Positions 5,207 through 12,199 of a stretch of 12,199 nt of DNA are shown here, in pieces; the first letter of the stretch is position 1, and every line of letters starts with the position of its first letter. The position numbers and the translations under genes were made by a program. The DNA is from a virus (lineage: Duplodnaviria; Heunggongvirae; Uroviricota; Caudoviricetes), in the IMG/VR virus record IMGVR_UViG_3300024346_000020. The stretch is one strand, 5' to 3'. The notes under the pieces are model-generated. The model did no database searches. It saw only the letters and a list, made by a program, of their open reading frames with translations, and was not told the DNA's origin.

Positions 5207-7960
5207 TTATAATGTTGTTATTGTTACTGTTGTTCCATTACCATAACTATTATCAGCAACTGCAATATATATAGTATATGATACTAATGCACCACTTATT
5301 GTTGTAATTGATAGTGCAGAAGTTCTTTTTATAAATGCAGTTAGTGTACTTGAAACTGTTGGTGGTGGAATCGATTCTGGATAAGGAGTTACTGTTAAAG
5401 ATGAAAGATCTCCTAATGAAGAAGGATAAGCAAATACCAATCTTGAACCAGCACCCCCATCATTGGAAGCGAATTTTTGTGCCTTAGTACCAAATTTATA
5501 ATTTCCAAGTCCTTCCACGATACTTTGAAGAGCAACTGAATTATATGCATCAACATCTGTTTGAGTAAGACTTATAGAAACTTGTCCAATATTAGCATAT
5601 CCATAGTAAAATACATTACTAAATGCCAATGATGCACTAACTGATGTACTATCACTTCCAGTTGCTGCAATTACCTGTGAACCAGATACAATTAAACCAG
5701 TTTTTGGTTTTGATATTGTTGTAGTATAAGTAATACCACTAGATAATCCAACAGTAGATAAAGTTGCACTAACTTTTGGATATGAACCTGAACTAAATGT
5801 ATATGATCCAGTTATTGTAGATGGGGTTGAAAATCCAGTAGTTGCTGCAGGAATACTACTTGTTCCTGTATATTTTACTATACATCCATTAGGTACTGTT
5901 ACTGAATTCGATGTACTAAATGTACCTACTGTAAACGGAGTCATACTTGTTCCAGTACCGTTTATTGCAGTCGGTCCAAATGATGTAGTACCATCAGACT
6001 TATATATCTCCCATCTAGAAACAATTGTCGGAGTAACTAATGATGTTGCTGCCAAGTCTATCTCAACTTGTTGATTATTTAGTTTACCAACTAATCTAGC
6101 AGGGTTTTGTTGAGGTAAATCACCTTGAAAAACTAAATTATATTCAGACGATAATAATACCGATTGTCTATCGTATAAATAATTATCAAATACTAAGTTA
6201 TCTTGTACTGATGAATTATTAGTATTCAAATTATATTGACCTGATAGATTATTCATTGTAATATTAGTTTGTTCAATACCTCTAAAGTTGATATTTTCAT
6301 TATAAGAATTTACTATATTTTGACTACCAATTCCCTTAGTACTAGCTGTTGCATATACATTTCCCCATTGAAATGCTTTTATTGGATTATATAATCCAAC
6401 ATCATCTATCCAATAGCTAATATTTTGTGAATTAGTGCTTACTATATTTGTACCTCTTTCATTTCTATAAATGATTTTATCAGTAAGTCTATCATACTTA
6501 ATTTTATCATAACTAATATTATAATTTGGAGTCGTGTAAGAAAGAAGTAACCATTCTGATAAATCTAAATTATAAGTATCTACTGATGCTAATGTATTAA
6601 CTCCTGAGATATTACTCCATGCTCTACCACCCCAATAAGCAACAGAGTTCGTTGCATAAGATGATGAAGTACCACCCCATATTTTATATCCAGCAACTGT
6701 TTGATCATACTTAGGATTAAAGAATTGACCCTCACCAACATCATTTAAAATTCCTTGTGAATTTGTTGTTAGGTATATTTCTGTACCACCATATAAACCA
6801 ACATCAGCATCTGTTATTCTATAAGTACTAGATGATGACAATGGTGATATTAAAGCAAATTGAGCAACAGTTACTGTAATAACCGGTGTTACACTACCGG
6901 CTCCGGACGACCAACTAAGATTACCTGTACCATCTGTTGTTATAACTTGCCCAAAAGTTCCATCTGATAAAGGTAGTTTATATTGATTATTAATATCAAC
7001 TATACCACCTAAATAAACGGTATCTGAACTATCAACTATTAAATTTTGACCACCAATAACAACTGTATTAGTTAAACTATCATTTACGGTTGTATTTGAT
7101 GATAATATAATGGCATTAGCACTAGTTGGTGTAGTAGAAATAGTATCTATATTGTCCGTAATAAAAATACCATTATATGTAGTCATTACAGCACCATTTG
7201 CACCCAATATACCAATAATATTTGTACCTGATGTTATATAAGCCTCATTATCACTATTAAATTTTAATTGTCCAACACCGCTAATTCCTTTTACATAACC
7301 ACCATCTTTTATTATTAAATTAGGTACATAAACAGAGTTTGATTGTGTTCCAACAATATTAGAACCACCAATAATAACACTATTATTAACGGTATTTGAA
7401 AATCTCGAACCATTTGATGATATAAATGCAGGAATCCTATTACCAGAGGCTCTCACAGTTGTTGCTGTTGTAAATTCTAAAACATTTGTTGTTCCTAACT
7501 TTAAATAAGAGTTGTTATTTTGTAATAGAAATTGATTTGCACCATAAGCTAAACTTATATAGGATGTATTCATTACTACAGATGAGCTTAAACCAGTTAG
7601 TTGAATAGTAGTATCAGTCATAGTTAAAGTAGAACCAGTTATTAAACTAGAAGATGATAATTCTACATAATTACTATAACTACCATTATCTAATCTTAAA
7701 CTAGCAGAGCCACCAGAGGATTTAATACCAGAATTTATATCTAAAAATATAGAATTCGTACCTGTTGTTTTACCAATAGATAATGTTTGTGCAAGTGAAC
7801 CAATTCCACCACCTGATCCAATTGGTGTAATAATACCTAAATGATCTTTTTGTTTTAAAACTCCATCTAATGTATCATACGCAACTAGGAATCCACCAAT
7901 TGAAGAAGGTGTAGCTGCAGTTATCATATTTACTCTACTCTCAAAAAGAACTAATGCCAT
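5207..7960 (-). CDS. Large virion structural / tail-associated protein (917 aa)
   Basis: Intact ORF, S/T/G-rich. Contains the fibre-hinge-like segment LPLSDGTFGQVITTDGTGNLSWS and two short SV(I/V)IGG repeats. Lies 23 nt from the next fibre gene and is probably co-transcribed with it. Exact function not assignable. Confidence 0.65.
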   Translation of the reverse strand: MALVLFESRVNMITAATPSSIGGFLVAYDTLDGVLKQKDHLGIITPIGSGGGIGSLAQTLSIGKTTGTNSIFLDINSGIKSSGGSASLRLDNGSYSNYVELSSSSLITGSTLTMTDTTIQLTGLSSSVVMNTSYISLAYGANQFLLQNNNSYLKLGTTNVLEFTTATTVRASGNRIPAFISSNGSRFSNTVNNSVIIGGSNIVGTQSNSVYVPNLIIKDGGYVKGISGVGQLKFNSDNEAYITSGTNIIGILGANGAVMTTYNGIFITDNIDTISTTPTSANAIILSSNTTVNDSLTNTVVIGGQNLIVDSSDTVYLGGIVDINNQYKLPLSDGTFGQVITTDGTGNLSWSSGAGSVTPVITVTVAQFALISPLSSSSTYRITDADVGLYGGTEIYLTTNSQGILNDVGEGQFFNPKYDQTVAGYKIWGGTSSSYATNSVAYWGGRAWSNISGVNTLASVDTYNLDLSEWLLLSYTTPNYNISYDKIKYDRLTDKIIYRNERGTNIVSTNSQNISYWIDDVGLYNPIKAFQWGNVYATASTKGIGSQNIVNSYNENINFRGIEQTNITMNNLSGQYNLNTNNSSVQDNLVFDNYLYDRQSVLLSSEYNLVFQGDLPQQNPARLVGKLNNQQVEIDLAATSLVTPTIVSRWEIYKSDGTTSFGPTAINGTGTSMTPFTVGTFSTSNSVTVPNGCIVKYTGTSSIPAATTGFSTPSTITGSYTFSSGSYPKVSATLSTVGLSSGITYTTTISKPKTGLIVSGSQVIAATGSDSTSVSASLAFSNVFYYGYANIGQVSISLTQTDVDAYNSVALQSIVEGLGNYKFGTKAQKFASNDGGAGSRLVFAYPSSLGDLSSLTVTPYPESIPPPTVSSTLTAFIKRTSALSITTISGALVSYTIYIAVADNSYGNGTTVTITTL

Positions 7961-9419: not shown

Positions 9420-9992
9420 ATGAAAGTTATAGGTATAACAGGAGGGATTGGTTCTGGAAAGACAACAATTACAAAGTATATTGAATCTTTGGGTTATCCT
9501 GTTTATATTGCAGATGATGAAGCCAAAAAAATACTTGATACCGAAGAAGTAGTAAATGAAATTAGAAATACCTTTGGAGAAGAAATTATCGAGAATAATT
9601 TGGTAGATAAGAAAAAGTTAGCTACTTTTGTATTCGGAAATGAGAATAACCTCAAAAAAATAAATGAGATTGTTCATCCAAAAGTAAGACAACACTTTAA
9701 TAACTGGTTAAAACAATGGGATAAACCTTTTGTAGTTAAAGAAGCAGCTATCTTATTTGAAAGTGGTGCTTATAAAGATTGTGATTTTACAATTTTAGTA
9801 ACAGCACCAGAAGATGTCAGAGTTGAAAGAGTTATCAAACGGGATAACACTAACAAAGAAGATGTCATTAAAAGAATAAGAACTCAATGGTCTGATGAGG
9901 ATAAAGCTAAATTAGCAGATTTTGTAATACAAAATATAGATTTAGAACAATCTAAGAAAGAAATTGATCAAATATTGGTAACTATAAAATAA
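9420..9992 (+). CDS. coaE: Dephospho-CoA kinase
   Basis: N-terminal IGITGGIGSGKTT P-loop plus the typical CoaE segments FVFGN...INEIVHPKV, EAAILFE, ILVTAPEDVRVERVIKRD, RIRTQ and ADFVIQN. Length 190 aa. Confidence 0.95.
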   Translation: MKVIGITGGIGSGKTTITKYIESLGYPVYIADDEAKKILDTEEVVNEIRNTFGEEIIENNLVDKKKLATFVFGNENNLKKINEIVHPKVRQHFNNWLKQWDKPFVVKEAAILFESGAYKDCDFTILVTAPEDVRVERVIKRDNTNKEDVIKRIRTQWSDEDKAKLADFVIQNIDLEQSKKEIDQILVTIK

Positions 9993-9996
9993 AAAT

Positions 9997-10224
9997 ATGA
10001 TAAAATCGTTACAACTTTATAGAGAATATAAAGATAGAGTTACAAATAAAGGTTATAATTTTATAGAATGGGTAGATATAAAATATCCAGAGTTGAGAAT
10101 TAAAAGTTTTCAAGATAGATTTATACAGGATTGGCTTAATGGTACATCAAATATTCATAGTAATAATACTTTTATACTATGGTTATGTAAGAATTATTAC
10201 ATTGTTGATGTAAATAATGATTAA
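9997..10224 (+). CDS. Hypothetical protein (75 aa)
   Basis: Starts 4 nt after the coaE stop with an A-rich initiation context. No recognisable motif. Confidence 0.65.
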   Translation: MIKSLQLYREYKDRVTNKGYNFIEWVDIKYPELRIKSFQDRFIQDWLNGTSNIHSNNTFILWLCKNYYIVDVNND

Positions 10225-10269
10225 ATTTTGAAAAAATGTTCAAAAATATGAAAAGGTAGAAAAACTTTT

Positions 10270-10279
10270 TAATATATAG
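10270..10279 (+). promoter_or_regulatory. TAATATATAG variant of the candidate late promoter, upstream of the two CAU tRNAs
   Basis: 9/9 match to the TAATATATA core, intergenic, 16 nt before the first tRNA-like gene. Confidence 0.4.
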
Positions 10280-10295
10280 AACTATAAACATATAT

Positions 10296-10366
10296 CGCGT
10301 TAAAGTGTAAAGGTTGCATGAGAGTCTCATAAACTCCACGGGGTGGTTCGAATCCACGAAACGCTA
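10296..10366 (+). tRNA. Atypical tRNA-like gene, anticodon CAT (Met or Ile2; possibly non-functional)
   Basis: Anticodon arm agagt-ctCATaa-actcc; T arm gtgg-ttcgaat-ccac; acceptor cgcgtt/aacgct with C1:U72 mismatch. Mismatches at 7:66 and 49:65, and A rather than U at position 8. Confidence 0.55.
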
Positions 10367-10412
10367 CAAAAGAGATAGATAACGATTTAGATACAAGTCT
10401 CAAAGAATATAT

Positions 10413-10485
10413 CGCGGGATAGAGCAGTTGGCAGCTCGTGTGGCTCATAACCATAAGGTCGGAGGTTCGAGTCCTTCTCCCGCTA
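10413..10485 (+). tRNA. trnfM: tRNA-Met(CAT), initiator (fMet)-like
   Basis: cgcggga/tcccgct acceptor with C1:U72 mismatch, fMet-type D arm, CAT at 10446-10448, T arm ggagg-ttcgagt-ccttc. Only two of the three diagnostic anticodon-stem G-C pairs are present. Confidence 0.85.
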
Positions 10486-10509
10486 CTAAATAAAAAAAGT
10501 TAAAAAAGA

Positions 10510-10540
10510 TTTGGTGGGTTAAAAACTTATCGTATCTTTG
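10510..10540 (+). promoter_or_regulatory. Bacteroidetes-type housekeeping sigma promoter driving the leader and tRNA array
   Basis: TTTG 10510-10513, 19-nt spacer, TATCTTTG 10533-10540. Confidence 0.8.
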
Positions 10541-10581
10541 CATAGAAGAATTAAAAAACAACAATTTAAAAAATAGAAAAA

Positions 10582-10683
10582 ATGACAACAATTACTAACA
10601 TAACAATAGCTATCGAAGCCATAGGCGGGTATGAAGCGGGGTATACAATACCATCGGTCAGAAGCGTTATGTGTATAAAGTAA
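10582..10683 (+). CDS. Putative attenuator leader peptide (33 aa, MTTITNITIAIEAIGGYEAGYTIPSVRSVMCIK)
   Basis: Below the ORF-track cutoff. A-rich initiation region typical of Bacteroidetes (aaaaaatagaaaaaATG). Sits between a consensus promoter and an intrinsic terminator; TAA at 10681-10683. Confidence 0.65.
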   Translation: MTTITNITIAIEAIGGYEAGYTIPSVRSVMCIK

Positions 10684-10709
10684 TGAGTTAAAAAACATTA
10701 TTATATAAC

Positions 10710-10747
10710 AAACCCAATCTGACGTAAAAATCAGATTGGGTTTTTTT
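10710..10747 (+). terminator. Intrinsic terminator, probably conditional (attenuator)
   Basis: aaacccaatctga (10710-10722), 8-nt loop, tcagattgggttt (10731-10743); T7 tract 10741-10747. Ends 14 nt before tRNA-Tyr. Confidence 0.9.
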
Positions 10748-10761
10748 ATTGAATTATATCT

Positions 10762-10843
10762 GGGTAGATATGCAAGTGGTTAAAGCTGGCAGACTGTAAA
10801 TCTGTTCTCATCGAGTTCGGGGGTTCGAATCCCTCTCTGCCCA
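10762..10843 (+). tRNA. trnY: tRNA-Tyr(GTA), canonical class II
   Basis: gggtaga/tctgccc acceptor, gcaga-ctGTAaa-tctgt, long variable arm ctc-atc-gag, ggggg-ttcgaat-ccctc, A73. Confidence 0.95.
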
Positions 10844-10851
10844 CAAAATAT

Positions 10852-10924
10852 GGTGTATTCGTCTAGCGGTAAGGATTACGCTTTTTCAAAGCGGAGGACG
10901 TCGGTTCGAATCCGACATACACTA
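10852..10924 (+). tRNA. trnE: tRNA-Glu(TTC)
   Basis: ggtgtat/atacact acceptor, cgct-ttTTCaa-agcg anticodon arm, gtcgg-ttcgaat-ccgac T arm. Confidence 0.9.
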
Positions 10925-10989
10925 CAAAGATGTAAATAAGTTATAACAGGATAGTAAGACCTAACACCGTGTAAATGATATATCTAATC

Positions 10990-11057
10990 GGGATGGATTA
11001 TGGTGATAGCCGGGTCTGTAAAACCCTAGCAGGAGAGTTCGAGTCTCTCGCATCCCA
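10990..11057 (+). tRNA. Compact atypical tRNA, anticodon GTA (Tyr-like), 68 nt
   Basis: gggatg/catccc acceptor (7:66 mismatch), D arm ttat-ggtg-atag with 4-nt loop, gggt-ctGTAaa-accc, 5-nt variable loop, gagag-ttcgagt-ctctc. Confidence 0.65.
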
Positions 11058-11065
11058 CAAAATAT

Positions 11066-11139
11066 GCTCTTGTCGTCTAACGGTAGGACTCCAGCTTCTC
11101 AAGCTGATGTAAATGCGGGTTCGATCCCCGTCAAGAGTA
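11066..11139 (+). tRNA. trnE: tRNA-Glu(CTC)
   Basis: gctcttg/caagagt acceptor, cagc-ttCTCaa-gctg, 7-nt variable region, gcggg-ttcgatc-cccgt. Confidence 0.88.
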
Positions 11140-11146
11140 CAAAATT

Positions 11147-11255
11147 GGGTTAACTTCCGGTGTAGGAACCGGCGTCCTCGTGTGAGAGAGGAAGCTAACA
11201 AAGCTAAGGAAAATGGTGGTAAACAAACCACGAGGTGCGAGACCCCTTTAGCCCA
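11147..11255 (+). ncRNA. 109-nt tRNA-like structured RNA with extra arms
   Basis: 7-bp terminal stem gggttaa/ttagccc + A and the same caaa trailer as the tRNAs. Hairpins ccgg/ccgg, tcctc/gagga (8-nt loop), agct/agct and tggt/acca, plus an imperfect T-like arm with loop tgcgaga. Confidence 0.55.
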
Positions 11256-11262
11256 CAAAGTA

Positions 11263-11367
11263 GATATTTGAGTGTAAGCAAGTACAATATCAGTCGTTAG
11301 GTTCTTACAGACAGTGAACGGTGGTCCGAATGTCATTATTCGGTGATGGATACCGGCAACTCCATCA
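11263..11367 (+). ncRNA. Candidate structured RNA (possible pseudoknot plus two hairpins)
   Basis: gatatt/aatatc, tgtaag/cttaca (crossing), ccgaat/attcgg, tgatgga/tccatca. Boundaries uncertain. Confidence 0.4.
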
Positions 11368-11372
11368 TATAT

Positions 11373-11444
11373 GATCCGGTCTTCTAATGGTCAGGAATCC
11401 AGGTTTTCATCCTGGCAATCGGGGTTCGATCCCCCGTCGGATTA
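11373..11444 (+). tRNA. trnE: tRNA-Glu(TTC)
   Basis: gatccgg/tcggatt acceptor, ccagg-ttTTCat-cctgg, cgggg-ttcgatc-ccccg. Confidence 0.92.
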
Positions 11445-11455
11445 CAAAAAAATAT

Positions 11456-11530
11456 TGGTAAGTAGCTTAGACGGTAGAAGCATCTGTCTTATACACAGAA
11501 GATAGTCGGGTTCGATACCCACCTTACCAA
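11456..11530 (+). tRNA. trnI: tRNA-Ile(TAT)
   Basis: tggtaag/cttacca acceptor, D stem gctt/aagc, tctgt-ctTATac-acaga (TAT 11490-11492), T arm gt(c)ggg-ttcgata-cccac with one bulged C. Confidence 0.85.
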
Positions 11531-11539
11531 CAAAAAATT

Positions 11540-11611
11540 GCGGGAGTCGTATAATGGCTATTATGCTGGACTTCCAATCCAGAGATGAGGTTTCGACTAC
11601 CTTCTCCCGCA
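11540..11611 (+). tRNA. trnG: tRNA-Gly(TCC), atypical (U53:A61, A73)
   Basis: gcgggag/ctcccgc, ctgga-ctTCCaa-tccag, gaggt-ttcgact-acctt. Confidence 0.85.
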
Positions 11612-11674
11612 CAGAATATGGAATAACATCGGTCCCGTAATGCCATGGCTCGTGCACGAGTAACGGGATGCCAT

Positions 11675-11747
11675 GCAAAAGTAGCTCAGTTGGTAGAGCT
11701 CCTGCCTTCCAAGCAGGTTGTCGCGAGTTCGAATCTCGTCTTTTGCT
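11675..11747 (+). tRNA. trnG: tRNA-Gly(TCC), canonical
   Basis: gcaaaag/cttttgc, cctgc-ctTCCaa-gcagg, gcgag-ttcgaat-ctcgt, U73. Confidence 0.95.
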
Positions 11748-11752
11748 CACAT

Positions 11753-11790
11753 GCCGGAGGACTCCCTGTTAGTCCCAGGGTCCGGCTCCA
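11753..11790 (+). ncRNA. Candidate Gly-like minihelix ending in UCCA
   Basis: gccgga/tccggc stem followed by T-CCA; GC-rich interior with alternative 5-bp helices. Confidence 0.35.
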
Positions 11791-11794
11791 ATAT

Positions 11795-11866
11795 GCGAAA
11801 ATAGCTCAGTGGTAGAGCACCACCTTGCCAAGGTGGGGGTCGCGGGTTCAACCCCCGTTTTTCGCT
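11795..11866 (+). tRNA. trnG: tRNA-Gly(GCC)
   Basis: gcgaaaa/ttttcgc, ccacc-ttGCCaa-ggtgg, gcggg-ttcaacc-cccgt, U73. Confidence 0.95.
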
Positions 11867-11945
11867 CAGTATAAGTGGTTTAAGTTGTAGAAATCTCTAT
11901 ATCTAAGACGTTAGATGTAAATTTTTATACACCACTTTAATTATA

Positions 11946-12089
11946 AAGATAGTAGTAATATAAAGCGTTACTTCGTATTCAAACGACTATTATAGGTTCG
12001 AATCCTATTGTCCGCACAAATAATTTAAAATGCGGATATAGTGTAATGGTAGCACAGTAAAAACACGTTTAATAAACTTTCTCTATCTT
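11946..12089 (+). ncRNA. Circularly permuted tRNA mimic with paired termini; YrlA-type Y RNA-like
   Basis: T arm (11992-12008) and acceptor 3' strand tgtccgc (12009-12015) come before the complementary acceptor 5' strand gcggata (12032-12038) and D arm (12041-12055). Flanks pair: ttac/gtaa, aagcg/cgttt, aagatag/ctatctt. Confidence 0.7.
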
Positions 12090-12095
12090 ATTTTT

Positions 12096-12169
12096 GGGGG
12101 ATTAGCTCAGATGGCTAGAGCGCTTGCCTTGCACGCAAGAGGCCACCGGTTCGACTCCGGTATTCTCCA
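12096..12169 (+). tRNA. trnA: tRNA-Ala(TGC)
   Basis: gggggat/attctcc with G3:U70, cttgc-ctTGCac-gcaag, accgg-ttcgact-ccggt. Confidence 0.95.
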
Positions 12170-12179
12170 CAACAATTTT

Positions 12180-12199
12180 GGGGTCACATGTTCCAAGGC
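12180..12199 (+). tRNA. Probable 5' end of a further tRNA, truncated by the window edge
   Basis: GGGG-start after a short A/T spacer, matching array spacing. Only 20 nt visible, so the isotype cannot be assigned. Confidence 0.3.

What the first reader, a model, noticed from the sequence alone, without database searches (positions are those of the whole stretch)
11946..12089. Circularly permuted tRNA mimic (YrlA-like Y RNA) hidden in the phage tRNA array
Seen: order is hairpin tcgt-attcaa-acga, T arm atagg-ttcgaat-cctat, tgtccgc, a 16-nt loop, gcggata, then D arm gtgt-aatggta-gcac. The acceptor strands pair 7/7 but in reversed order. The flanks form a long interrupted stem: ttac 11968-11971/gtaa 12057-12060, aagcg 11963-11967/cgttt 12066-12070, aagatag 11946-11952/ctatctt 12083-12089. 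Established: bacterial YrlA Y RNAs have a terminal stem binding Ro60/Rsr and a tRNA-like module with T arm, closed-loop acceptor stem and D arm in permuted order; rsr loci are often linked to RtcB RNA repair. Permuted true tRNA genes are known from some algae and an archaeon. Inference: a phage Y RNA predicting an Rsr/RtcB RNA-repair module, co-induced with the tRNAs via the attenuator. Alternative: a permuted tRNA gene, though the 6-nt anticodon-position loop argues against decoding. I cannot verify a Ro-binding consensus by eye.
Basis: partly seen in the sequence, partly recalled or inferred. Interest (0 to 1): 0.85.

Follow-up and report, generated by a model that had tools for sequence, protein, structure and literature searches.

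The report
Megaphage Y RNA: inside-out tRNA
A giant freshwater phage hides among its tRNA genes a small RNA built as a complete tRNA turned inside out and mounted on a conserved stem; the same stem marks small RNAs beside the Ro60 (Rsr) gene in related phages, so this is a divergent member of the known YrlA class of Y RNAs, not a tRNA.

Summary
The fold is conserved with heavy covariation: 14 homologues, 97% of cells paired, and 27 of 36 pairs changed on both sides against 9-12 in slid controls.

The YrlA-like reading holds.
- A model built from this element finds full-length copies directly upstream of the Ro60/rsr gene, on the same strand, in Rhodococcus phage Trina and two other phage contigs.
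- It also finds the published-type YrlAs of mycobacteriophage ET08 and Streptomyces phage Comrade.
- Across 31 rsr loci, all 30 of its hits lie within about 900 nt upstream of rsr on the rsr strand.
- Many of those hits are stem-only hairpins that share only the terminal stem, which marks that stem as the likely Rsr handle.

Every near-complete genome carrying the element encodes a TROVE+vWA protein. In the megaphages that gene lies 127-143 kb away.

Not supported:
- RtcB is absent from all five relatives searched.
- The GNCGAA motif is absent.
- Rfam's YrlA model gives no hit.
- The window's own rsr gene could not be checked.

Removing the stem in silico gives a cloverleaf that ARAGORN calls a tRNA, but the window's anticodon-position loop has 6 nt.

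This scan has reported similar phage Ro60/Y-like RNA sets on other DNA. Verdict: a new variant of a known kind, of moderate interest.

The parts
11946..12089 (+). Whole element: a YrlA-type Y RNA made of a handle plus a permuted tRNA body
   Evidence: The minimum-free-energy fold gives this layout. Model R1 scores it at 164 bits full length. Covariation supports the structure.
11946..11952 (+). P1, 5' strand (aagatag), pairing with 12083-12089
   Evidence: All 7 pairs change on both sides somewhere among the 14 homologues. In the rsr-adjacent hairpins it is replaced by CCAG/CUGG, CAAG/CUUG and similar pairs.
11953..11962 (+). 5' internal-loop motif UAGUAAU (11953-11959) plus linker; the candidate protein-contact part of the handle
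   Evidence: The sequence is kept as UAGUAAU, UAGUGAG or UAGCAAU in the megaphage copies, and as UAGUAA or UAGUGA in most stem-only RNAs beside rsr; the more distant copies drift to CAGUGAG or AAGUAAU, and Trina's copy lacks it.
11963..11967 (+). P2, 5' strand (aagcg), pairing with 12066-12070
   Evidence: 4 of 5 pairs show changes on both sides.
11968..11971 (+). P3, 5' strand UUAC, which is the YUAY of YrlA; pairs with GUAA at 12057-12060
   Evidence: It is nearly invariant. GUUACUUCG is also kept in nearly all the stem-only RNAs. YUAY is described by Chen et al. 2014.
11973..11986 (+). 'V' hairpin, a relic of an anticodon arm: 4-bp stem with a 6-nt loop AUUCAA
   Evidence: All 4 pairs covary. 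After un-permutation ARAGORN reads it as the anticodon arm. Orthologues have 7-nt loops of the UUC or GCA type.
11987..11991 (+). 5-nt variable loop CUAUU; its last U can pair with A15 (Levitt pair)
   Evidence: Read from the sequence. One copy in G029 has G15 with C at this position (alignment).
11992..12008 (+). T arm (AUAGG-UUCGAAU-CCUAU)
   Evidence: Rfam's tRNA model matches it locally at positions 46-63. 3 of 5 pairs covary and the loop is nearly invariant.
12009..12038 (+). AS hairpin: a 7-bp acceptor stem closed by a 16-nt loop that begins A-CAAAU
   Evidence: All 7 pairs covary and 100% of cells pair. The loop starts like the 3' trailers of neighbouring tRNAs.
12039..12056 (+). U8-A9 linker, D arm (GUGU-AAUGGUA-GCAC) and A26
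   Evidence: The D arm is invariant in the 9 close homologues and covaries in the distant ones.
12057..12082 (+). 3' side of the handle: GUAA (P3), AAACA, CGUUU (P2), then the loop AAUAAACUUUCU carrying the conserved UUUCU
   Evidence: AAAACAC and UUUNCU are also kept in most of the stem-only rsr-adjacent RNAs.
12083..12089 (+). P1, 3' strand (ctatctt)
   Evidence: See P1.
11795..11867 (+). Upstream neighbour, tRNA-Gly(GCC)
12096..12170 (+). Downstream neighbour, tRNA-Ala(UGC), 6 nt after the element
   Evidence: One contig from an RNA library bridges the element and this tRNA.

Best explanation
The element is a phage-encoded Y RNA of the YrlA type. It has two modules.

1. A terminal 'handle' made of P1, an asymmetric internal loop (UAGUAAU opposite UUUCU), P2 and P3 (UUAC/GUAA). 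I infer that this handle binds the phage's Ro60/Rsr protein, which has TROVE and vWA domains.
2. A complete tRNA cloverleaf in circularly permuted order. The acceptor stem is closed by a loop, and the handle leaves the body between tRNA positions 26 and 27.

The element is transcribed within the tRNA array. Its acceptor loop looks like an ordinary inter-tRNA spacer (3' trailer plus 5' leader) on a 7-bp acceptor stem. It is therefore probably opened by RNase P and 3' processing with CCA addition, as shown for Mycobacterium smegmatis YrlA, with the two halves staying paired.

The tRNA-shaped module would then tether Rsr to a tRNA-binding partner, or protect the RNA, during infection.

Shown here: the structure, its conservation, the genomic linkage of the RNA family to rsr, and the sharing of the handle. 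Inferred: Rsr binding, processing and biological role.
For: - Structure. The layout is exact and is the minimum-free-energy fold. Covariation is strong in every helix except the nearly invariant P3; the D stem covaries only among the distant copies.
- Linkage to rsr. Model R1, built only from this element and its homologues, finds the Trina copy (111 bits) 1.2 kb upstream of gp245 'Ro RNA binding protein' on the same strand. It finds tandem full-length copies (63-72 bits) directly upstream of rsr in G024 and G029. It also finds the YrlAs upstream of the Ro genes of ET08 and Comrade, at the places where Rfam's YrlA model gives its own sub-threshold matches.
- Position of hits. In 31 rsr loci (194 kb, both strands), all 30 R1 hits lie on the rsr strand within about 900 nt upstream of rsr.
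- Shared handle. Many of those hits are stem-only RNAs that share the handle. Their P1 covaries while UAGU(A/G)A, GUUACUUCG, AAAACAC and UUUNCU are largely kept.
- Co-occurrence. TROVE genes are present in LR745206, G004, G025 and Trina, which are all the near-complete genomes that carry the element.
- The protein. It matches solved Ro60-type proteins over its full length: 9l5y and 9kop at E=1e-22, and also 9nen, 2nvo and 1yvp. Pfam finds TROVE plus a vWA domain, and the sequence carries DVSGSM.
- tRNA features. U8, A14, A15:U48, G18G19, the T loop UUCGAAU, the UA linker and YUAY are all present.
- Processing precedent. M. smegmatis YrlA has a 7-bp acceptor stem and is cut by RNase P and CCA-tailed in vivo.
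- Weak hint of expression. Contigs from RNA libraries of three studies cover the element, one at 2 differences in 242 nt.
Against: - No Rfam YrlA hit even at E<=10.
- The GNCGAAN0-1G motif proposed as the Rsr site is absent.
- In the megaphages rsr is 127-143 kb from the element, not within 4 kb.
- The window's own genome could not be searched, and its two closest relatives are fragments without TROVE.
- Three near-complete megaphage contigs that carry rsr lack a strong copy of this RNA.
- There is no binding or end-mapping data. Contigs from RNA libraries cannot exclude DNA carry-over.
Confidence: 0.85

Rival explanations
1. It is a genuine circularly permuted tRNA gene. The precursor ends are joined at the base of the handle, the acceptor loop is opened, and a decoding tRNA (Glu or Cys type) results.
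For: After in-silico removal of the handle and un-permutation, ARAGORN calls all 14 homologues tRNAs. It reports Glu-UUC in four, Cys-GCA in two, Ile-UAU in one and Asp-GUC in one. The acceptor loop resembles a trailer plus leader. The acceptor stem has 7 bp.
Against: The window and its closest relatives have a 6-nt loop at the anticodon position, with a 4-bp stem plus a conserved U-C mismatch. The 'anticodon' differs between orthologues at the same locus while the D arm stays identical. The handle is conserved in sequence and is shared with hairpins beside rsr that have no tRNA part. No RtcB ligase is present in five relatives. Copies lie directly beside rsr in three phages.
Confidence: 0.04
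2. It is debris: the 3' part of one decayed tRNA gene followed by the 5' part of the next, with no function of its own.
For: YrlA-type RNAs are thought to have arisen from dimeric tRNA transcripts (Wang et al. preprint). Ordinary tandem tRNAs match part of the search pattern.
Against: The same permuted layout occurs in every relative, down to an actinophage. Compensatory changes are seen in all 7 acceptor pairs and in the flanking stems. No relative shows two complete tRNAs at this place.
Confidence: 0.01
3. It is a functional tRNA-shaped RNA whose handle binds a partner other than Rsr. It would act as a decoy or substrate mimic for tRNA-directed enzymes, such as host anticodon nucleases or tRNA-modifying or repair enzymes, independently of Ro60.
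For: In the megaphages the element sits in the tRNA array far from rsr. Some megaphages with rsr lack it. The canonical Rsr motif is absent. The anticodon-arm relic is conserved.
Against: R1 hits are strictly placed on the rsr strand just upstream of rsr in 31 loci. Tandem full-length copies lie beside rsr in G024, G029 and Trina. Every complete genome with the element has rsr.
Confidence: 0.08

Closest known systems
YrlA (Y RNA-like A; Rfam RF02553; Chen et al. 2014, PMC4201824; crystal structure of the Salmonella tRNA-like domain, preprint 10.1101/312249)
   Same: The order of parts is the same: terminal stem, YUAY, V hairpin, T arm, closed acceptor-like stem-loop, UA, D arm, return strand. 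The nucleotides needed for tRNA tertiary contacts are present. Homologues lie next to Ro60/rsr on the same strand.
   Different: There is no GNCGAAN0-1G; the handle carries UAGUAAU opposite UUUCU plus GUUACUUCG and AAAACAC instead. The Rfam model does not detect it. In the megaphages it is 127-143 kb from rsr, inside a tRNA array. The V hairpin followed by a 5-nt linker behaves as a full anticodon arm plus variable loop, so the body is a complete cloverleaf.
Mycobacterium smegmatis YrlA (Chen et al. 2014, section 8)
   Same: It has a 7-bp acceptor stem with a sizeable loop. That is the feature that made the M. smegmatis RNA a substrate for RNase P and CCA addition in vivo, with both halves staying bound to Rsr.
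   Different: Processing is only inferred here. The loop begins N73-CAAAU, like the local tRNA trailers. The host and the Rsr clade are different.
Actinophage YrlAs beside Ro genes (mycobacteriophage ET08, Streptomyces phage Comrade, Rhodococcus phage Trina)
   Same: They are detected reciprocally by the model built from this element, at 24, 34 and 111 bits. They sit in or beside phage tRNA arrays and have V hairpins with 7-nt loops.
   Different: Those copies are within 0.2-1.2 kb of the Ro gene, and Trina's keeps a CCGAAUG stretch resembling the canonical motif. The megaphage copies are unlinked from rsr and have a different handle sequence.
Circularly permuted tRNA genes of the red alga Cyanidioschyzon merolae (recalled from my own knowledge, not tested here)
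   Same: The 3' half of the tRNA precedes the 5' half, and the acceptor strands are joined by a spacer that has to be opened.
   Different: Those genes yield normal decoding tRNAs through a circular intermediate formed at a bulge-helix-bulge site. Here the termini form a conserved protein-type handle, the window's loop has 6 nt, and no matching ligase is seen in relatives.
Thermus phage phiLo Ro60 with Yrl1 and Yrl2 (PMC12135203)
   Same: A phage-encoded Ro60 with small stem-plus-internal-loop RNAs upstream of the gene. I take the two TROVE entries 9l5y and 9kop, the best solved matches to the megaphage Rsr at E=1e-22, to be this protein; the search output names no organism.
   Different: The phiLo RNAs were picked by their CGAA motif, and that paper does not use the terms tRNA-like or YrlA for them.

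Membership tests
YrlA-type Y RNA | T stem-loop with a tRNA-type loop and D stem-loop with GG, in the order T ... D | tested here: met
   T arm at 11992-12008 with loop UUCGAAU; D arm at 12041-12055 with loop AAUGGUA. Both are conserved in 14 homologues.
YrlA-type Y RNA | Closed acceptor-like stem-loop (AS) between the T and D arms, a UA linker to the D arm, and a pyrimidine at the end of the variable region | tested here: met
   The 7-bp AS at 12009-12038 has every pair covarying. UA is at 12039-12040 and U at 11991.
YrlA-type Y RNA | Conserved YUAY ahead of a V hairpin upstream of the T arm | tested here: met
   UUAC at 11968-11971, then the V hairpin at 11973-11986. UUAC or UUAU is found in all homologues.
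YrlA-type Y RNA | GNCGAAN0-1G motif near the 5' end (proposed Rsr contact) | tested here: not met
   It is absent from 11868-11990. The 5' strand reads AAGAUAGUAGUAAU... instead. Trina's copy has ACCGAAUG, one mismatch away.
YrlA-type Y RNA | Encoded within about 4 kb of rsr on the same strand | tested here: inconclusive
   The window's own genome is not held. The criterion is met by the homologues in Trina, G024 and G029. It is not met in LR745206, G004 and G025, where the strand is the same but the distance is 127-143 kb.
YrlA-type Y RNA | Match to Rfam RF02553 at the gathering score (69 bits) | tested here: not met
   No hit at E<=10. The test is weak, because the YrlA upstream of the Ro gene of ET08, a phage whose YrlA was published, reaches only 37.4 bits and Trina's Ro-adjacent copies only 17-24 bits.
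YrlA-type Y RNA | Reciprocal detection of accepted YrlAs by a model of this element | tested here: met
   R1 hits ET08 at L038:4162-4317 and Comrade at L039:3648-3789. Both are upstream of the Ro gene and overlap the sub-threshold Rfam YrlA matches.
YrlA-type Y RNA | Physically bound by Ro60/Rsr | not testable with these tools
   This needs co-immunoprecipitation, CLIP or a gel-shift assay. The indirect support is the handle shared with rsr-adjacent RNAs.
Permuted decoding tRNA gene | 3' half upstream of 5' half, with a complete cloverleaf after un-permutation | tested here: met
   ARAGORN calls all 14 un-permuted bodies tRNAs.
Permuted decoding tRNA gene | Canonical 7-nt anticodon loop on a 5-bp stem, with identity consistent among orthologues | tested here: not met
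   The window has a 6-nt loop and a 4-bp stem with a U-C mismatch. Orthologues read UUC, GCA, UAU or GUC.
Permuted decoding tRNA gene | Machinery and motif for joining the precursor ends (RtcB-type ligase, bulge-helix-bulge) | tested here: not met
   No RtcB in five relatives. The termini form a long, conserved, interrupted helix rather than a bulge-helix-bulge. The window's own genome was not searched.

The most novel reading that the evidence does not exclude
In this megaphage clade the Ro60 handle may be a portable module grafted onto real tRNA bodies at position 26/27, in both topologies. In the permuted form described here the acceptor is closed and the handle is open. In a tRNA-Asn-like gene about 4.7 kb upstream the acceptor is open and the handle is closed. 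[quoted passage not shown] The phage would then make Rsr-tagged, possibly chargeable tRNA bodies that deliver Ro60 to ribosomes, synthetases or host anticodon nucleases. That would be a tRNA surveillance or counter-defence particle, not a generic RNA-decay cofactor.
Probability: 0.12. Interest if true: 0.8.

Novelty: new variant of a known kind. Interest (0 to 1): 0.5.

Why it matters
Y RNAs that mimic tRNA are known from bacteria and a few actinophages, but their effector and purpose remain unknown.

This locus extends the class to megaphage-sized (roughly 390-640 kb) freshwater phages, with a different handle sequence that the current Rfam model misses.

It gives a clean natural experiment. 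One conserved handle occurs alone beside rsr, on a permuted full tRNA body, and, in close relatives, on a non-permuted tRNA-Asn-like body. That makes the handle-Rsr interaction and the role of the tRNA module separately testable.

It also warns annotators that 'gaps' in phage tRNA arrays may hold Ro60 partner RNAs far from the Ro60 gene.

Tried and rejected
- Rfam. Neither the gathering search nor an E<=10 search of 11860-12199 gave a YrlA or Y_RNA hit. The only match inside the element on its own strand was a 13.9-bit tRNA T-arm fragment. I do not count this as evidence against membership, because accepted phage YrlAs also fall below the threshold.
- Own genome. It is not held, so TROVE and RtcB could not be searched there.
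- G001 and G002. Neither has TROVE. This is uninformative, because they hold only about 40 kb upstream of the element while rsr lies 127-143 kb upstream in complete relatives.
- RtcB (PF01139). It is absent from LR745206, G001, G002, Trina and G004, so the RtcB linkage is dropped.
- Pattern scan of one genome per prokaryote species. It gave 0 hits, so there is no sign of a bacterial or prophage copy with this exact core.
- Promoter and terminator scan of 10200-12199. Nothing convincing lies next to the element. The 'terminators' are tRNA T arms.
- Rfam on the rsr-upstream regions of the megaphages. Nothing was found.
- RNA-library contigs. They show presence only. They cannot give ends, strand or level, and DNA carry-over is not excluded. 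Stretches of the window without cover are not interpreted. The coincident contig starts at 11896-11901 in three studies are only a weak hint, because no DNA run was laid beside them.
- CUUCG as a degenerate GNCGAA. Only the CG is shared, so I left this as not met.
- Handle motif GUUACUUCG elsewhere in the window. There is no second exact copy.

Full report
**Observation.** The unconstrained minimum-free-energy fold of 11940-12095 gives exactly the proposed layout. That layout is a long interrupted terminal stem enclosing four hairpins, at -29.8 kcal/mol, with a z-score of -3.0 and 0 of 200 shuffles folding as well. ARAGORN and Rfam find ten ordinary tRNAs on the + strand from 10413 to 12170 and nothing inside 11946-12089. 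The element lies between tRNA-Gly(GCC) and tRNA-Ala(UGC).

**Homologues and covariation.**
- BLAST and pattern scans found the same permuted layout in the 634,780-bp uncultured phage LR745206, at 75% identity.
- It also occurs in IMG/VR contigs G001 and G002 (close relatives), in G004 (476 kb) and G025 (385 kb), in several lake metagenome contigs, and in Rhodococcus phage Trina.
- On a 9-sequence MAFFT alignment, 98.1% of cells pair and 19 of 36 pairs change on both sides. Slid controls give 2-5, and 0 of 500 shuffles reach the observed value.
- On 14 sequences aligned to model R1, 97.2% pair and 27 of 36 pairs change on both sides, against 9-12 in slid controls. That alignment is fitted to the model, so it leans towards the structure.
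- All seven pairs of the 'reversed' acceptor stem covary.
- No relative has two complete tRNAs at this place, so the decay-remnant reading is out.

**Link to Ro60/Rsr.** In Trina the homologue (111 bits with R1) lies in a tRNA array 1.2 kb upstream of gp245, annotated 'Ro RNA binding protein', on the same strand. Further YrlA-like modules lie between the two.

LR745206, G004 and G025 each encode a 483-aa protein with TROVE and vWA domains. That protein matches solved Ro60-type proteins over its full length: 9l5y and 9kop at E=1e-22, and also human Ro60, Deinococcus Rsr and Xenopus Ro.

In G024 and G029, whose Rsr is 57% and 47% identical to that of G004, two tandem full-length copies of the RNA (63-72 bits) sit directly upstream of rsr on its strand.

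R1 also finds the YrlA upstream of the Ro gene of mycobacteriophage ET08, a phage used in Chen et al. 2014, and that of Streptomyces phage Comrade. Both hits fall exactly where Rfam's YrlA model gives its own sub-threshold matches.

**The handle.** Across 31 rsr loci (194 kb, both strands), all 30 R1 matches at E<=0.05 lie on the rsr strand within about 100-900 nt upstream of the gene.

Many of those matches are hairpins of about 80 nt that have only the terminal-stem module. In them P1 covaries (AUAG/CUAU becomes CCAG/CUGG, CAAG/CUUG, GUGG/CCAC and so on). By contrast UAGU(A/G)A, GUUACUUCG, AAAACAC and UUUNCU are largely kept.

Further handle-bearing RNAs occur elsewhere in the megaphage genomes. 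One example carries the handle plus a T arm only, at G004:257501-257629.

A shared, sequence-conserved stem module that recurs immediately in front of rsr is what an Rsr-binding site would look like. Binding itself is inferred, not shown.

**The tRNA body.**
- The body has U8, A14, A15 with U48, G18G19, a T loop UUCGAAU, a UA linker and YUAY (UUAC). These are the features Chen et al. and Wang et al. list for YrlA.
- When the handle is removed and the halves are re-ordered in silico, ARAGORN calls all 14 homologues tRNAs. It reports Glu-UUC in four, Cys-GCA in LR745206 and Trina, and one each of Ile-UAU and Asp-GUC.
- The window group is left unassigned, because its anticodon-position loop has 6 nt.
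- The 'V' hairpin with its 5-nt linker is therefore an anticodon arm plus a class-I variable loop, and the handle leaves the body at position 26/27.
This is a tRNA-Asn(GUU)-like body with an open acceptor. The same handle, closed by a loop, is inserted at the same junction with the same GUAA/UUAC pairing.

**Processing (inferred).** tRNAs of this array are followed by N73-CAAA. The 16-nt acceptor loop begins A-CAAAU, so it looks like an ordinary trailer-plus-leader spacer on a 7-bp acceptor stem.

Chen et al. showed that M. smegmatis YrlA, the one with a 7-bp stem, is cut by RNase P and CCA-tailed in vivo, and that both halves remain with Rsr. I expect the same here.

Contigs from RNA libraries of three studies cover the element: 11901-12142 with 2 differences, 11896-12118, and 11901-12053. 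One of them bridges into tRNA-Ala. This is only a weak hint of transcription.

**What does not fit.**
- Rfam's YrlA model gives no hit.
- GNCGAAN0-1G is absent.
- In the megaphages rsr is 127-143 kb upstream of the element, not adjacent to it.
- Three near-complete contigs that carry rsr lack a strong copy of the RNA.
- RtcB is absent from all five relatives searched.
G001 and G002 reach only about 40 kb upstream of the element, so their lack of TROVE says nothing.

**Known versus new.** tRNA-mimicking Y RNAs beside Ro60 are established in more than 250 bacteria and 22 phages. TROVE proteins in some jumbo phages have been noted, and 357 phage records encode homologues of Trina's Ro protein.

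This scan has already reported Ro60-like genes with handle-sharing tRNA-like RNAs in other phages, and the same element on another genome. I did not test those notes.

What is new here is a divergent subfamily with three features:
- a different handle sequence;
- a full permuted cloverleaf, unlinked from rsr and embedded in the tRNA array;
- coexistence with stem-only and inverse-topology handle RNAs.

I rate it a new variant of a known kind, with an interest score of 0.5.

Noticed in passing
L003:451-534 (LR745206 240619-240702); L019:460-540 (G004 96383-96463): Hairpin RNAs of about 80 nt lie roughly 400 nt upstream of rsr on the same strand. They carry only the handle and look like YrlB-type stem-only Y RNAs. 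They are conserved across about 20 rsr loci, and their P1 covaries.
   Followed up: yes
L003:540-830; L019:545-830: A noncoding stretch of about 290 nt lies between the stem-only hairpin and rsr. It is conserved between two megaphages and ends in a strong terminator-like hairpin. It has no Rfam match. It may be a further structured RNA of the rsr locus.
   Followed up: partly
L051:151-285 (G001) and L052 (G002), about 17 kb (G001) and 8 kb (G002) upstream of the element in these relatives: A tRNA-Asn(GUU)-like gene that ARAGORN does not call. The same handle, closed by a loop, is inserted between the D arm and the anticodon arm.
   Followed up: partly
L014:5840-7240 (Rhodococcus phage Trina 83.2-84.6 kb): At least three YrlA-like modules lie upstream of the Ro gene, at about 5916-6065, 6845-6954 and 7042-7184. 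One region is annotated as a 209-nt pseudo 'tRNA-OTHER'. Each RNA in this stretch is followed by a repeated motif AACATG(T/C)TC.
   Followed up: partly
window 12185-12194 and 11749-11756: CACATGTTCC after tRNA-Ala and CACATGCC after tRNA-Gly resemble the AACATGYTC repeat seen after the RNAs in Trina. This may be a shared processing or termination signal.
   Followed up: no
window 11057-11065, 11140-11148, 11255-11262, 12016-12021: tRNAs and tRNA-like genes of the array are followed by N73-CAAA, a common 3' trailer. The acceptor loop of the Y RNA starts the same way.
   Followed up: partly
L045:502-630 (G004 257501-257629); L088:1501-1628 (G012): A handle RNA whose cargo is a 34-35-nt insert plus a T arm only, with no acceptor stem or D arm. 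It is another member of the handle family.
   Followed up: no
window 9420-9992 (+): A phage-encoded dephospho-CoA kinase (CoaE; Pfam 148.6 bits) just upstream of the tRNA array. The large minus-strand ORFs of 1461 and 917 aa have no Pfam match.
   Followed up: no
L005:2990-3070; L006:4230-4310: In other viral contigs a normal tRNA is followed by a D-arm-like GGTGTAATGGTAGCACAGG. This continues into conserved sequence that is not tRNA (…AAGTCCGAGA…GGCAGCAAGATGCC). I did not identify it.
   Followed up: no
window 11896-11901: Contigs from three metatranscriptome studies that cover the element all begin within these 6 nt, about 45 nt upstream of P1. This could be a transcript start or a processing site, but contigs cannot prove either.
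   Followed up: partly
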